Assembly: GCA_038890975.1 (NCBI GenBank)
Contig: JAWAEZ010000003.1
Span: 1-51,344 of the forward strand
Source: Candidatus Woesearchaeota archaeon
GTDB taxonomy: Archaea > Nanobdellota > Nanobdellia > Woesearchaeales > CAIVOO01
DNA length: 51,344 nucleotides
Direction: 5' to 3'
Positions 45,001 through 51,000 of this stretch are shown piece by piece; within the stretch, counting starts at the first letter, position 1, and every line of letters begins with the position of its first letter. Made by a program: the position numbers.

Positions 45001-48000
45001 CTTTTTCAAAAGCTTTAAAATAGCTTCTTCTTGCTTTTGCGGTAACCTAAAAGTTTTTGTTATATATATTTTTTTATTTTCCCCTTGAATGCCTATATTT
45101 TCTTGGCGGACTGTGGCAATTGCAGTTTTCTGTCTTTTATAATATTTATTCCCAATTTCTTCAATTGCTTTATTTTCTCCTATCTGATACACTTGGGTTT
45201 CTCTGCTATTGTTTCTATACACTGTAACTCCTTTGCATCCTAATTCGTATGCAAGCATATATGCTTTTTCTATATCCTGAGGAGTTGCTTCTGTGGGGAG
45301 ATTTATTGTTTTTGAAACAGCATTATCCGTATATTTTTGAAAAGCGGCCTGTATTTTTATATGCTGTTCCGGACTTATTTCCCCAGCAATTTTAAAAATA
45401 CGCTTTATCCCTTCGGGTAACCCTTTGATATCTTTAACACTTCCATTTTTTATAATCTCTTGCATAATATCTTCGGAATAGAATCCTTTCTCTTTTGCAA
45501 TTTTCTCAAAGTAAGGGTTTATAGTTTTGATCGCTGTGCCGTCCATTACATTTTTTACTGCACTAAGAGCAATTAAAGGTTCTATTCCAGAAGAAACATC
45601 TGCAATCATAGCAATTGTTCCAGTAGGAGCGATTGTTGTTATTGTAGCATTTCGTAACCTTAAATGTTCTCCTTTGAAATACGGGCTGTCCTTATTGTAA
45701 ATGCTTTTTTCCCATTCTGGAAAAGTGCCTCTTTTCTCAGCGAGTTCTATAGATGCTTCTCTTCCTTTATCCCTTATGAACTTCATCACCTCTTCTGCTA
45801 TATCAATTGCTTTATCAGAATCGTATGGAATCTGTAGTTGGATTAACATATCAGCGAAACCCATAACTCCGAGACCTATTTTTCTGTTTTTCTTTGTTAT
45901 TTCCTCAACTTCAGGGAGGGGAAATTTATTAACATCAATAACATTGTCAAGAAAATGAACAGATTCTTTAACAATTTTTTCTAATAGCGGATAATCTATT
46001 TTTTCTTCTTTGACAATCTTAGCGAGATTAATACTTCCGAGATTGCACGATTCGTAAGGTAGTAGGGGTTGTTCGCCGCAGGGGTTTGTGCTTTCTATTT
46101 CTCCTAAATGTGGTGTTGGATTATATTTGTTTATCCTATCAATAAATATGACTCCTGGTTCTCCGTTCTGCCATGCTCTATTTATTATAAGGTCAAAAAT
46201 GTTACGAGCGTTTATTTCTTTTATTTTTTTTTTATTTCTAGGATTTACCAGAGTATAATTTTTATTTTCTTTAACAGCTTCCATAAACTTATCTGTTAAA
46301 GCAACAGAAATGTTAAAATTATTAAGTTGGTTAGATTCTATAAGAATTCTTTCTATTAATTTGTAGTTATCCCCCATAATTTTTTTTAGAGGAAAAATTT
46401 TTTCAATTTTTTCTAGTATCTGCGCATTTTTTTCATTGGAAATTGCTTTGCTGTTTATAAAATCAACTATGTCAGGATGATCGACTCTTAATATTCCCAT
46501 ATTTGCCCCTCTCCTTGTGCCTCCTTGTTTCATCGTTTCTGTTGCTTGGTTGTAGATATACATAAAAGAAACAGGGCCTGATGCAACCCCGCTCGTTTTT
46601 TTTACAATATCATTTCTTGGTCTTAATCTGGAAAAAGAGAAACCAGTCCCCCCTCCACTTTTATGTATCAAGGCGGTATTTTTGAGTTGTTCAAATATTT
46701 GGGTCGTATCATCATAGACAGGCAGTACAAAACAGGCAGAAAGCTGGCCTAACTCTCTACCTGCATTCATAAGGGTGGGCGAGTTTGGAAGAAAATATAA
46801 CTCTGTCATTAAATTATAAAATGTTTCGGTTGTTTTTTTAACTTCGTCATCAGTTGCTCCGTAATATTTATCTGCGGCTGCGATTGTTTTAGCCACTCTT
46901 AGAAACATCTCTTCCGGCTTTTCAATAACATTTCCGTTCTCGTCTCTTTTTAAATATCTTTTTGCGAGAACTTTAAGGCCATTAGCACTTATATTTAAAG
47001 AAGTATTATAATAATCTTCTTTTATGTTACATGATGAGCACAATTCTTTATTTTCAGTAAGTGTTTCTATATTTTGTTTAGGGGTTGTACCAAGCGATTT
47101 ATTTGCTATTTTTATTATTGTTTCGGCGTCCATTACATTTTTTTCATTATTACCAAGCTTAATTTTAATTCCTGGAAATTTTTTTACTACATTCATATTT
47201 TCATCAAGAATTACTATTATGGGGAAGCCATAGTTTGCGCCGATATTAAAATAATTGAAGAGAGTAGGATATTCCCCTATATTAATTTGTTTTATGCATA
47301 TTTGGTCTCCATACTCTTTCCTAATTTTTTCTATTTCAGGTTCTATTTCTTCACAAAACCTGCAATTTGACTTTGAGATTTCTATGAGTACTGGTTTATC
47401 CTTGCAATCTTTGCATATTTCTTCTAAAATTTTCTCTGTCATTCATCTCTCACCTTTTCAATGTTTTTATTTCTTTTTCAAACTCTTTCACATCGTCAAA
47501 TGCCCTGTAAACCGATGCAAACCGGATATACGCAACTTTGTCAAGCGATTTAAGCTTTTTTATTACCATCTCCCCAATCAATTTTGTGGGCACTTCTTTT
47601 GATTTTCTTTCTTTTATTTTATTTTCAATATCATCAATAATTTTTTCAATTTTATCTGTACTTATCGGCCTTTTTTCGCATGCCTTTTTTATTCCTGAAC
47701 TTAGTTTTTCTCTCTTATAAGGTTCTCTTCTTCCATCCTTTTTAATAACATTAATGTTGATTGTTTCAGGTTTTTCATAAGTAGTGAATCTTTTTTTACA
47801 CTTAATACATTCTCTTCTTCTTCTTGTTACATTTTTTGTGGTTCTTTTATCTATAACTTTGGTCTTGTTATGGCCGCAGTATATACAAAACATTTTCTTT
47901 TCAATTTTCGATTTTTATGGGATTTATTTTTTAATTTTTTCAATACAGGGGATTGGGTAACAAAATATTTTTTTAATAAATAGTTAGTATGTTAATACAA

Positions 48001-51000
48001 TATATTGTGTTTTGTTTTATAGGTTATAACAACTTATTGTATTTTGTTATAATCAGATAATATTTAAATATTCTTATTTTAAAATTATTGTTTTGAATAA
48101 TATAGTATGGACTTGTTTATTATGGTTAAGTAAAAATTTTATAATTATAAAGTGTTGTTAAGAAAAATATATAATATAAATAGTATTTTAAATTTTAATG
48201 ATATTTAAATATATGATTTACATTTCTTTTTACTAAATTAAATTTTAATTAAACCAGAAATATAAAATAAAAATTTTAAATAAAGATCTGCTAGATCCGG
48301 AAAAGAGGTGTTAAAGTGAGAAATGAAAAATCAAAAAAAATTAGTTATAACACTTTGATTAAGAATAAAACACTTTTTGAATGTTGCACCGAAAAAAAAG
48401 AAAAAAATTCTTTGTAAAATTCTCTTATAAACTTTTAATTTGAAATAAATATATTCCCTCTGTTTTTATCATAAGCTGATTAATACTTTATCTGGTTTTT
48501 CGTTTAAATTTTTTAATTATTTAAATAAAATTATAATTCCCTGCTTATATTTTATAAAACAATAAAATATATTAACACATAATTTTTTGTACTTTTTATG
48601 TGGTGGGATGAGATTTTTGGAGAAAGACGATATCGTATAGAAAAGAATAAGAAAATCCCAGAAAGACCGGGGTGGGATAGACATTTTCTTAAACTTGCCG
48701 CGGATTATAGTTTAAGAGCGACCTGCTTAAGAAGACAATACGGCGCAATAATTGTAGACACAAAAAAGAGGCTGGTTTCTGCTGGTTATTGCGGAGCCCC
48801 GCGTGGTGTTAATAATTGTTTGGAAAGAGGAGAATGTTATAGGAGAATATATAACATTCCCTCGGGTGAGAAGTATGAATTGTGTATGTCAATTCACGCC
48901 GAAGAAAACGCAATATTGTTTTGCGACGACAAAAATCGTCTTGAAGGGGCGACTCTTTATTTAGCAGGTTGGGATGTAGAGAAAGAGATGCCATCTTTTT
49001 CTCCGCCTTGCATATTATGTGCTAAAAAAATTATACAAGTAGGTATAGAAAAAATAGTTCTTTTTGAACAAAACGGAGGGGTGAGAACGATAGAAGTTTC
49101 TACCATAGCGGATAAACTTTCAAAAGGGGATTTTTCTTATCCATATTAGAATTAATTTGATTCAAGCCCTTTATTTTGTTATGTTAATCAAAAATATTAA
49201 CTTAACCCACTTGCTTTAATATTTCAGGAAGCTCTTCAATGTCTTTTATGACAAAATCGGCAATTTTTATTTGTTCCTTTGGAATCTTATGTCTTTTATT
49301 AATTAAAAGAACTGTTTTCATTCCTAAAAATTTAGCAGGCAGTATCTCTTTATGAATACTATCGCCTATACTTATACAATTCTCAAATTCGTATCCCATA
49401 TCATTGCAGATTTTCTTAAGAATTTTTTTGCTTGGTTTTTCGTCACCTAAAATTTCAGGAGTATAAATTTTTTTTATAAATTTTTTAATTTTAAGATATT
49501 GGATTGTTTTACTGACAATATCATAAGGACTATTTGATAAAACAACTATATCATTATTCTTTGAAATGTTTCTCAAAACATCGTAAATGTTTTTATAGCT
49601 TATAATATATTTTTTTGTGTCTATTTTATTAAGCACTTCATAAAAAGCACTTATTGGTATTCTTAAATGTTGCAGAACTGCTGTCGTAGTATATTTCTTT
49701 TTCTCTGCCATTAATTTTCTTCTTTCACTTTCAAGTAAATTTTTTGCCTTTTGGTAATCTATTTTTTTGTATTTGGCTATTAAGTTTATTATTTTTCTTT
49801 TTCTAATACTGCTTAATACAGGGCTTACTTTGTATAATGTATCGTCTAAATCAAAGATTAGAAGCATTTAAACGACCTCAATTATTTTTTTTCTACTTTT
49901 CAAACCACTTTTTATTCTAACTTTTTTATTTAATAATTTTGAAAAAAATCTAATAACCTCTTTGTTTGCTTTATCTTTATTGGCGGGTGCGGCTATTGAA
50001 ACCTTTAATGAGTTATCTTCAACTCCTAAAATTGCGTTTTCTTTAGAACTAGCTTTTACAATAATAGAAATATTTTTTTGATTTAAAATGTCTTCAACTC
50101 TTATACTTTTGATATCTTGCATTTTGGTTTATTAGCTTCCAAATTTTTTTTCATATTCAAACGGGTCTTCAAATTTTATTTTTCTGAATCTTTTTCTCAA
50201 TTCATCGCTTATTTTTTCCGTTGTTAATATTCTTGATATAACACCCCTTTTTGCAGCACAGATAAGTTTCGCAAGCTCGGTGTTTATATGATACCTATAT
50301 ATTAAATGATTTACAAATTTTTCATCTTTTTTATATAAATATATTGGAGCGAGGTTACACTTCTTTTTTTGTTCTTCTAATTTAAGTTTATATCTTTCAT
50401 AAACATTAGGAGTCACAAAAATTTTTCTGTGATACCTTAATCTATCCTTTTCAATAAATTTAATTATAACTTCTTCGTCTGCAAATGTTCTTCTATAGAA
50501 ATAAATAAGTGGGAAGTGCCATAACAACGAGGATATTAAAATTATAGTTAGCCCAAAAATAATACCGCCGATAACAAAATCTAAATTAGGTATTATGTTT
50601 TTTTCTTTTTCAAAAACAGCAGGGCTTTCGGCAACCGCACTTTTTGTAGAGTATCCTATGTTTCTTTTTCTTGCCTCTATAACCTCCTCTTTTTCAGGTT
50701 TTATATTTTCTTCTCCTGTCCCTTCTTTTGGGATTATTAAAGCTCCGCCACCACTACTTCCTCCTCCACCACCCCCGCCACCTCCTCCGGCAGGAGTGCA
50801 TACACCGCAGTCAGCACGACAAGAGTTACAAGTTTCCCCATTATTACAAATACCATCACCACACCAAAAAAATCTAATAGTTAAATTATAAACATATGAA
50901 ATATTCCAGTTACCTGCTAAATCATAAGCAATAACACTCCAATTATACTGCCCGTTAGGCATATTCAACACGATGAAATTTTGGGTGGTGTTTATTATAA

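What a model noticed while it worked through the whole genome (the two positions that open the first line are those of the whole stretch)
47995..48042. Tandem NrdR boxes in an archaeal nrdR-nrdJ promoter
Two 16-bp NrdR boxes 32 bp apart lie 100-150 bp upstream of the nrdR-nrdJ operon (g00185-g00184), just downstream of a TATA-like element. The bacterial operator geometry is kept across Woesearchaeales wherever nrdR precedes a reductase gene, so NrdR likely represses an archaeal promoter.
Evidence so far: Boxes read in calls 145 and 160. Of 22 nrdR loci scored against 100 shuffles each, a box pair at 31-32 bp reached p<=0.02 in 13 of 15 loci where the next ORF is reductase-like (judged by eye from its N-terminus) and in 1 of 7 others. 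NrdR in 22 of 31 relatives, in none of the 4 control archaea. PMC4009431: the NrdR-box 'is absent in archaea and eukaryotes'; PMC13584703 gives NrdR in 22% of archaeal genomes but its box surveys are of bacterial genomes; search 164 empty.
(Added by a program. Inside this text positions count along the whole contig: contig position 1 is position 1 of the stretch shown here. "Call 12" and the like, gene names such as g00115 and contig names such as C1 are that model's own, and its searches are not shown. The text may have been shortened before it was handed on; [...] marks where a part breaks off. The agent that wrote the report below was given it as the finding of a first reader that could run no searches.)

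Follow-up and report, generated by a model that had tools for sequence, protein, structure and literature searches.

The report
NrdR operator on an archaeal promoter
A small uncultured archaeon has two textbook binding sites for the nucleotide-sensing repressor NrdR just after an ordinary archaeal TATA box, in front of its genes for making DNA building blocks, so NrdR likely switches these genes off; the protein was known in archaea, but I found no paper describing its sites there.

Summary
Confirmed. Two 16-bp NrdR boxes (47995-48010, 48027-48042; 16-bp linker) lie 102-149 bp upstream of nrdR-nrdJ. Both fit the published bacterial pattern, and they are the best pair in the genome.

Across the order:
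- The published pattern finds a 31-32-bp pair before 35 of 63 nrdR loci followed by a reductase, and 1 of 45 others.
- Unseeded motif discovery returns the NrdR box.
- Where nrdR lies apart, the pair sits at the reductase (24 of 32 genomes). Where no nrdR was found it is nearly absent (1 of 37).

A BRE-TATA lies 26 bp above box 1; the inferred start site falls inside box 1. The NrdR keeps its DNA- and nucleotide-contact residues. Pairs also occur in Pacearchaeota, Micrarchaeota and haloarchaea (13-14-bp linker).

Likely mechanism: a dATP/ATP-loaded NrdR tetramer covers the start site and blocks RNA polymerase. Binding and repression are untested.

NrdR in archaea is known. Two papers say the box is absent there, and six searches found no archaeal box study. 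The scan noted this system before in other genomes. Verdict: a known operator in an undescribed setting, of moderate interest.

The parts
48027..48042 (-). NrdR box 1 (next to the TATA box); C4, A6, T11, G13 kept, middle AA; predicted to contain the transcription start (about 48036-48038)
   Evidence: middle AA binds normally in bacteria (PMC13584703)
48011..48026 (.). 16-bp linker (32 bp start to start, about three helix turns)
   Evidence: spacing histogram
47995..48010 (-). NrdR box 2; all six conserved positions kept; best single site in the genome (18.9 bits)
48061..48068 (-). TATA box TTTAAATA, first base 26 bp above box 1
48069..48076 (-). BRE-like A-rich element directly upstream of the TATA box (inferred from the de novo BRE-TATA motif)
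47450..47893 (-). nrdR, 147 aa, Zn-ribbon plus ATP-cone; D15, R17, RRRR and the nucleotide-site residues are kept
44590..47442 (-). nrdJ, class II (B12) ribonucleotide reductase, 950 aa, 7 bp after nrdR; N-terminal thioredoxin-like domain, no ATP-cone hit
44315..44545 (-). 4Fe-4S ferredoxin 44 bp after nrdJ; possibly the third gene of the transcript (inferred from spacing only)

Best explanation
The two 16-bp sites are a tandem NrdR-box pair lying just downstream of a BRE-TATA promoter, and a dATP/ATP-loaded NrdR tetramer likely binds both boxes and represses nrdR-nrdJ by covering the predicted transcription start. Shown here: the boxes, their spacing, the BRE-TATA 26 bp upstream, an intact NrdR, and the link between box pairs, reductase promoters and presence of nrdR. 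Inferred from bacterial structures (PMC9110341): with ATP alone NrdR forms a non-binding oligomer; with dATP plus ATP a tetramer kinks the DNA about 90 degrees at each box. Inferred from geometry: the TATA box and BRE stay uncovered, so TBP and TFB could still load, while RNA polymerase recruitment or open-complex formation would be blocked. This would be a negative feedback from dATP on reductase expression, and on nrdR itself.
For: Published pattern at 31-32 bp: 35 of 63 reductase-followed loci against 1 of 45 others; shuffle means 1.0 and 0.8. Strict-pattern pair spacings over 10-79 bp: 36 at 31-32, 6 at 57, 3 at 33, at most 2 elsewhere. With spacing left free, 49 of 59 scoring pairs (63 loci) fall at 31-32. 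Unseeded EM gives ACActATATatTGTgT. Pair at a reductase promoter in 24 of 32 genomes with nrdR elsewhere against 1 of 37 with no nrdR found; by family 19 of 24 against 1 of 28; among loci with a nearby BRE-TATA 15 of 20 against 1 of 14. De novo motif above box 1 is ccAAAAaaTTTAaATA; it scores in 90 of 119 promoters (39 of 56 held out) against 10 of 119 and 2 of 114 control windows. In the genome's own genes the TATA start peaks 29-33 bp before ATG (62 of 138), which places the start inside box 1. R17, K50, K62 and Y128 equivalents and the four Zn cysteines are invariant in 170 of 170 archaeal NrdRs. The genome has TFB and a TBP fragment, and no sigma-70 region 2 was found.
Against: No binding, start-site or expression data. 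7 of 63 reductase-followed loci score under 15 bits, and 28 of 63 miss the published pattern. The genome's second nrdJ has no boxes, unlike the bacterial rule that all operons carry them (bioRxiv 2025.03.28.645925). One 95%-complete genome with no nrdR hit has a perfect pair (G052). The TATA-to-box distance varies from -6 to -38, so one blocking step may not fit all promoters; in some Micrarchaeota box 1 overlaps the TATA box. The matrix was built from pattern-defined sites in the same order (leave-one-out or held-out, but kin are not independent).
Confidence: 0.8

Rival explanations
1. NrdR represses, but at an earlier step: the sharply bent NrdR-DNA complex keeps TBP/TFB from loading, rather than blocking polymerase.
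For: Box 1 starts only 18 bp after the TATA box here; in 3 Micrarchaeota promoters the TATA start is at -6/-7 and overlaps the box; some loci have further boxes at -57, upstream of the BRE-TATA.
Against: In most promoters the TATA start lies 11-38 bp above box 1 (87 of 90), and in this window neither BRE nor TATA is covered.
Confidence: 0.11
2. NrdR binds here but acts otherwise: as an activator, or as a roadblock to a polymerase that starts at a promoter further upstream.
For: No start-site data; the clustering of TATA-to-box offsets could reflect a protein contact.
Against: The inferred start falls inside box 1; characterised NrdRs are repressors (PMC9110341, bioRxiv 2025.03.28.645925); no other minus-strand BRE-TATA scoring 6 bits or more in 47881-48620.
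Confidence: 0.04
3. The boxes are a non-functional remnant carried in with a recently transferred bacterial nrdR-nrdJ operon.
For: Archaeal reductase genes are often transferred (PMC3019208); the NrdR tree is too unresolved to date the gene.
Against: Pairs persist before class I/II and class III reductases in many families, move with the reductase when nrdR is elsewhere, vanish where nrdR is not found, and sit at an archaeal BRE-TATA.
Confidence: 0.03
4. Chance AT-rich palindromes in a 15% GC intergenic region, or sites of another archaeal factor.
For: The loose published pattern alone gives 32 pairs in this genome.
Against: 0-4 of 2000 shuffles; best pair in the genome; dependence on nrdR.
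Confidence: 0.02

Closest known systems
Streptomyces coelicolor nrdRJ operator bound by NrdR (PDB 7P37/7P3F/7P3Q; PMC9110341)
   Same: nrdR co-transcribed ahead of a class II reductase; two 16-bp boxes about three turns apart at the start site; D15, R17, RRRR, K50, E56, K62, F124, V127, Y128 equivalents kept.
   Different: Here the promoter is BRE-TATA (TBP/TFB), not sigma-type; linker 16 rather than 15 bp; AT-rich boxes; not tested by experiment.
Escherichia coli NrdR and its nrdAB, nrdHIEF and nrdDG boxes (PDB 9FVR/9FXK; PMC13584703)
   Same: Best PDB match (E about 6e-42); box 2 here matches E. coli nrdDG box 2 at 14 of 16 bases (Table 1).
   Different: E. coli NrdR controls all three operons from a distant gene; here only one of two nrdJ genes has boxes.
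Archaeal promoter-occluding repressors Mdr1, LrpA, Phr, NrpR, TrmB (PMC5569661)
   Same: Bacterial-type repressor acting on TBP/TFB/RNAP promoters by occluding TBP/TFB or preventing polymerase recruitment.
   Different: The review describes structurally characterised archaeal factors as helix-turn-helix proteins; NrdR is a Zn-ribbon/ATP-cone tetramer that reads two boxes and bends DNA about 180 degrees.
Haloarchaeal nrdR-nrdA/nrdB operons (PMC3019208, Table 3)
   Same: nrdR ahead of a reductase in archaea was already listed.
   Different: No boxes in the passages I read; I find pairs there at 29-30 bp (13-14-bp linker) in 7 of 7 named plasmids, with a separate NrdR clade.

Membership tests
NrdR operator (tandem NrdR boxes) | 16-bp partial palindrome with C4 and G13 eight bases apart | tested here: met
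   both boxes (criteria)
NrdR operator (tandem NrdR boxes) | A6 and T11 kept; at least 63% AT between C4 and G13 | tested here: met
   7 of 8 and 8 of 8 AT; middle AA in box 1 is tolerated
NrdR operator (tandem NrdR boxes) | two boxes with a 15-16-bp (or 25-26-bp) linker | tested here: met
   16 bp here; peak at 31-32 bp across the order. Haloarchaeal pairs have 13-14 bp
NrdR operator (tandem NrdR boxes) | in reductase promoters, only in genomes that encode NrdR | tested here: met
   24 of 32 against 1 of 37 genomes
NrdR operator (tandem NrdR boxes) | overlaps the polymerase site or transcription start | tested here: inconclusive
   start inferred inside box 1 from the TATA-to-ATG peak; not mapped
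NrdR operator (tandem NrdR boxes) | bound by NrdR with dATP plus ATP, and represses | not testable with these tools
   needs binding and transcription assays
NrdR protein (TIGR00244) | Zn-ribbon with two CxxC and RRRR, then ATP-cone, above the curated cut-off | tested here: met
   187 bits against 124.65; PF22811 plus PF03477
NrdR protein (TIGR00244) | base-reading D15/R17 and nucleotide residues K50, E56, K62, F124, V127, Y128 | tested here: met
   all identical in the window protein; R12 and R51 are K, F58 is Y, Q72 is E
Archaeal BRE-TATA promoter | TTTAWATA-like box with an upstream A-rich BRE, in a genome with TBP and TFB | tested here: met

The most novel reading that the evidence does not exclude
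NrdR is the common dNTP-pool sensor of DPANN archaea and its operator has been fitted to the archaeal initiation complex. Box 1 sits at stepped offsets from the TATA box (about -7, -16, -25, -34; period 9-9.5 bp), so the tetramer occupies a preferred face and traps a TBP-TFB complex while excluding polymerase. Haloarchaea run an independent version with a 13-14-bp linker, mostly below the 14-17-bp range that bacterial NrdRs bind well.
Probability: 0.3. Interest if true: 0.62.

Novelty: new variant of a known kind. Interest (0 to 1): 0.42.

Why it matters
It would supply the missing cis-side evidence that archaea control deoxynucleotide synthesis at transcription through NrdR. It would correct printed statements that the NrdR box is absent from archaea (PMC4009431; bioRxiv 2025.03.28.645925). 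It defines a predicted regulon in uncultured DPANN lineages (NrdR over cut-off in 230 of 301, 101 of 121 and 44 of 121 sampled genomes), and it points to cultured haloarchaea where it can be tested. Surprise is limited: NrdR genes in archaea are known, some papers already assume they regulate archaeal reductases, and bacterial-type repressors on TATA promoters are an established theme.

Tried and rejected
RNA evidence for the start site: no RNA holder listed; no reads were laid.
Rfam over 47400-48700: no match up to E=1.
tRNA genes as a TATA-to-start ruler: only 2 of 10 scored, so I used protein genes.
NrdR tree (85 rows, quick tree only; the careful search did not finish): 12 of 81 inner branches well supported, so no claim on origin or donor.
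Records titled 'Methanosarcinales' (L222, L255): rejected as evidence for methanogens. L255 has the same promoter as L064 from the window's own order, and the phylum sample around L222 returned genomes of that order.
The other 77 were not analysed.
A rule that NrdR controls reductases lacking an ATP-cone fits this genome but not relatives, where many boxed reductases have one.
Literature search was too loose: none of the 40 listed papers mentions NrdR.
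Full report
OBSERVATION. The region above nrdR (47450-47893, minus strand; TIGR00244 187 bits) and nrdJ (44590-47442; TIGR02504 739 bits) holds, in the direction of transcription, ATACAATAAGTTGTTA (48042-48027), a 16-bp linker and ACACAATATATTGTAT (48010-47995). Both boxes match. That pattern is loose: 32 pairs at 31-32 bp in the 724-kb genome, 2 when A6 and T11 are fixed, the other inside an ORF. In 2000 dinucleotide shuffles of the 350 bp above nrdR, 4 gave a pair with the loose pattern and 0 with the strict one. A matrix trained without this locus ranks the pair first in the genome, 28.9 bits against 16.6 for the next. 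The second nrdJ, on C18, has no box.

CONSERVATION IN THE ORDER. NrdR passed the cut-off in 230 of 301 genomes of the order (this tally includes the own genome and nine unpublished genomes, on which no other claim rests). I took 110 of the 150 listed matches: the top ranks, leaving out seven unpublished genomes, three loci at contig ends, the own genome and the lowest ranks, with G066 added out of rank for its long frame. The next ORF was classed by Pfam for 108 of 110 loci; two had none. Two loci with under 200 bp upstream were dropped. The published pattern found a 31-32-bp pair in 35 of 63 loci followed by a reductase (19 of 28 class III, 16 of 35 class I/II) and 1 of 45 others; shuffle means were 1.0 and 0.8. 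Strict-pattern spacings were 10 at 31, 26 at 32, 3 at 33, 6 at 57 and at most 2 elsewhere from 10 to 79 (window included). EM from 60 random seeds returned ACActATATatTGTgT, matching the consensus acaCwAtATaTwGtg quoted in PMC4009431. A leave-one-out matrix scored 15 bits or more in 56 of 63 against 6 of 45. Of those six, L078 has a reductase-like ORF that my caller missed, L064 and L084 precede cobA, kinase and dCMP-deaminase-like genes, and three have no reductase within 2 kb. Two of the seven misses have a co-directional ORF ending within 41 bp of nrdR. With spacing left free from 18 to 60 bp, 49 of 59 scoring pairs were at 31-32.

IS NrdR THE COGNATE FACTOR? I fetched reductase loci from 45 genomes whose nrdR is not followed by a reductase and from 59 genomes with no or only a weak NrdR hit. 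I tabulated 42 and 47 loci, leaving out fragments and duplicate hits, and dropped 3 and 5 that lacked upstream DNA. A pair was found in 24 of 32 genomes of the first set and 1 of 37 of the second (published pattern: 15 of 32 and 2 of 37). By family this was 19 of 24 against 1 of 28; among nrdR-less genomes at least 90% complete, 1 of 27; among loci with a BRE-TATA near the start, 15 of 20 against 1 of 14. The exception, G052, is 95% complete and may lack the nrdR contig. Kin are not independent, but the contrast holds at family level. The boxes therefore follow the reductase promoter and depend on nrdR. The window's NrdR keeps D15, R17, RRRR and the equivalents of K50, E56, K62, K69, F124, V127 and Y128 (roles from PMC9110341). 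In 170 archaeal NrdRs R17, K50, K62, Y128 and the four cysteines are invariant; D15 is kept in 150 and E56 in 144.

PROMOTER GEOMETRY. An unseeded search of the 50 bp above box 1 returned ccAAAAaaTTTAaATA, a BRE-TATA. It scored 8 bits or more in 90 of 119 promoters, against 10 of 119 windows further upstream and 2 of 114 downstream, and in 39 of 56 promoters not used in training. The search window ran from -60 to +10, so 'upstream' is partly built in; the downstream control covers that. In the window's own genome this motif has its TATA start 29-33 bp before ATG in 62 of 138 scoring genes (355 examined). I read that peak as leaderless transcripts (inference), which makes the start about 30-32 bp below the first T. 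Here the TATA starts at 48068, 26 bp above box 1, so the predicted start is 48036-48038, inside box 1. The genome encodes TFB and a TBP fragment at a contig edge, and no sigma-70 region 2 was found (82% complete). Across promoters the TATA offsets cluster near -34, -25, -16 and -7 (Rayleigh R 0.44 at 9.5 bp; the highest of 2000 unimodal nulls was 0.36, but 3% of nulls reach it if only a third of the loci are independent). The clusters partly follow clades and the period is shorter than a helix turn, so phasing is suggestive only.

OTHER ARCHAEA. In the order of a record titled Pacearchaeota, NrdR passed the cut-off in 101 of 121 genomes, and 20 of 28 reductase-followed loci have the pair (30 loci fetched, one dropped, one not reductase-followed). 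In the phylum of a record titled Micrarchaeota the figures were 44 of 121 genomes, and 9 of 15 loci against 1 of 15 others. Seven named haloarchaeal plasmids with nrdR before nrdA or nrdB all have two boxes after a TTTAT-like element, at 29 bp (5) or 30 bp (2); of three metagenome relatives two score and one does not. These plasmid loci are closely related, so they are few independent cases. A 13-bp linker lies outside the 14-17-bp range that four bacterial NrdRs bound well (PMC12051234).

MECHANISM. Most likely (0.8): when dATP rises, NrdR loaded with dATP and ATP forms a tetramer whose two Zn-ribbon pairs bind both boxes and bend the DNA, as in S. coelicolor (PMC9110341). Here that would cover the start site and about 40 bp downstream, leaving BRE and TATA free, and so block polymerase recruitment or opening, one of the two modes known for archaeal repressors (PMC5569661). 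Blocking of TBP/TFB (0.11), activation or roadblock (0.04), remnant (0.03) and chance (0.02) are the rivals. Sequence, spacing and co-occurrence are shown; binding, start site and repression are inferred.

WHAT IS KNOWN. NrdR genes in archaea are in print: 6 in RNRdb 2009 (PMC2795772), haloarchaeal operons (PMC3019208), 22% of archaeal genomes (PMC13584703). PMC9110341 and PMC12051234 state that NrdR controls some archaeal reductases, without archaeal data in the parts I read. The box surveys in PMC13584703 and PMC12051234 used bacterial genomes only; the 935-sequence profile of PMC9110341 was run on GTDB representatives, and its Methods do not say whether any hit was archaeal. PMC4009431 and bioRxiv 2025.03.28.645925 say the box is absent from archaea. 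Searches showed no paper on archaeal boxes, but the library lacks most subscription papers. What I saw: PMC13584703, parts 1-3 of 4 of the text; PMC9110341, Results parts 1-2 of 3, the Bioinformatics section, passages and a term search of its supplements (one PDF unreadable, one file cut); passages only for PMC12051234, PMC4009431, the bioRxiv preprint, PMC3019208, PMC2795772, PMC12176259, PMC5569661 and PMC7446807. Rodionov and Gelfand 2005 I did not see; other supplements were not read and could list archaeal sites. This scan noted the same system in at least six other genomes; those notes are not support.

VERDICT. A real NrdR operator by every feature testable here, on an archaeal promoter, and part of a wide DPANN and haloarchaeal pattern. 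It is a known switch in a setting I could not find described. Interest 0.42.

Noticed in passing
window 44590-47442 (-), residues 12-89: The NrdR-linked NrdJ starts with a thioredoxin-like domain (CxxC; Pfam E 5.5e-7) and has no ATP-cone hit. The N-terminal 151 aa found only weak matches in 2 of 6 other genomes of the family, in frames of 115 and 246 aa, so the fusion looks rare.
   Followed up: partly
G000:C18:8162-10267 (L405): A second class II reductase with an N-terminal ATP-cone-like region and no NrdR box, followed by a cobA-like adenosyltransferase gene.
   Followed up: partly
L075, L077, L100; also G291, L302, G538, G539: NrdR in frame with a long ORF. In L075, L077 and L100 (825-869 aa) the rest is an ATP-cone plus NrdD, with box pairs upstream: a repressor fused to its own target.
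   Followed up: partly
L064, L084 (also L082, L079, L104): nrdR is often followed by a nucleotide-kinase-like, dCMP-deaminase or dUTPase gene; L064 and L084 have strong box pairs before such genes, so the regulon may extend beyond reductases.
   Followed up: partly
L091, L096, L102, L072: Further boxes 57 bp (and in some about 88 bp) above box 1, so that sites flank the BRE-TATA on both sides.
   Followed up: partly
window 48063-48070 (+), 48093-48108, 48204 (+), 48598-49149 (+): The TATA box is palindromic and also scores on the + strand; a weak half box lies at 48093-48108. A second + strand TATA lies at 48204, and the divergent gene is a dCMP-deaminase-family protein. Co-regulation was not tested.
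   Followed up: partly
L258-L263, L404, L324: Haloarchaeal nrdR promoters share a further GTACTAC-like element about 45 bp above box 1.
   Followed up: no
G088, G098, G115, G121, G122, G129, G188, G197, G201, G206, G263: Weak NrdR-family hits at E 1e-16 to 1e-22: divergent NrdRs or fragments, not examined. G121 and G206 are unpublished genomes.
   Followed up: no
L222, L255: Records titled 'Methanosarcinales' that belong with the window's own order or phylum: likely mislabelled.
   Followed up: yes
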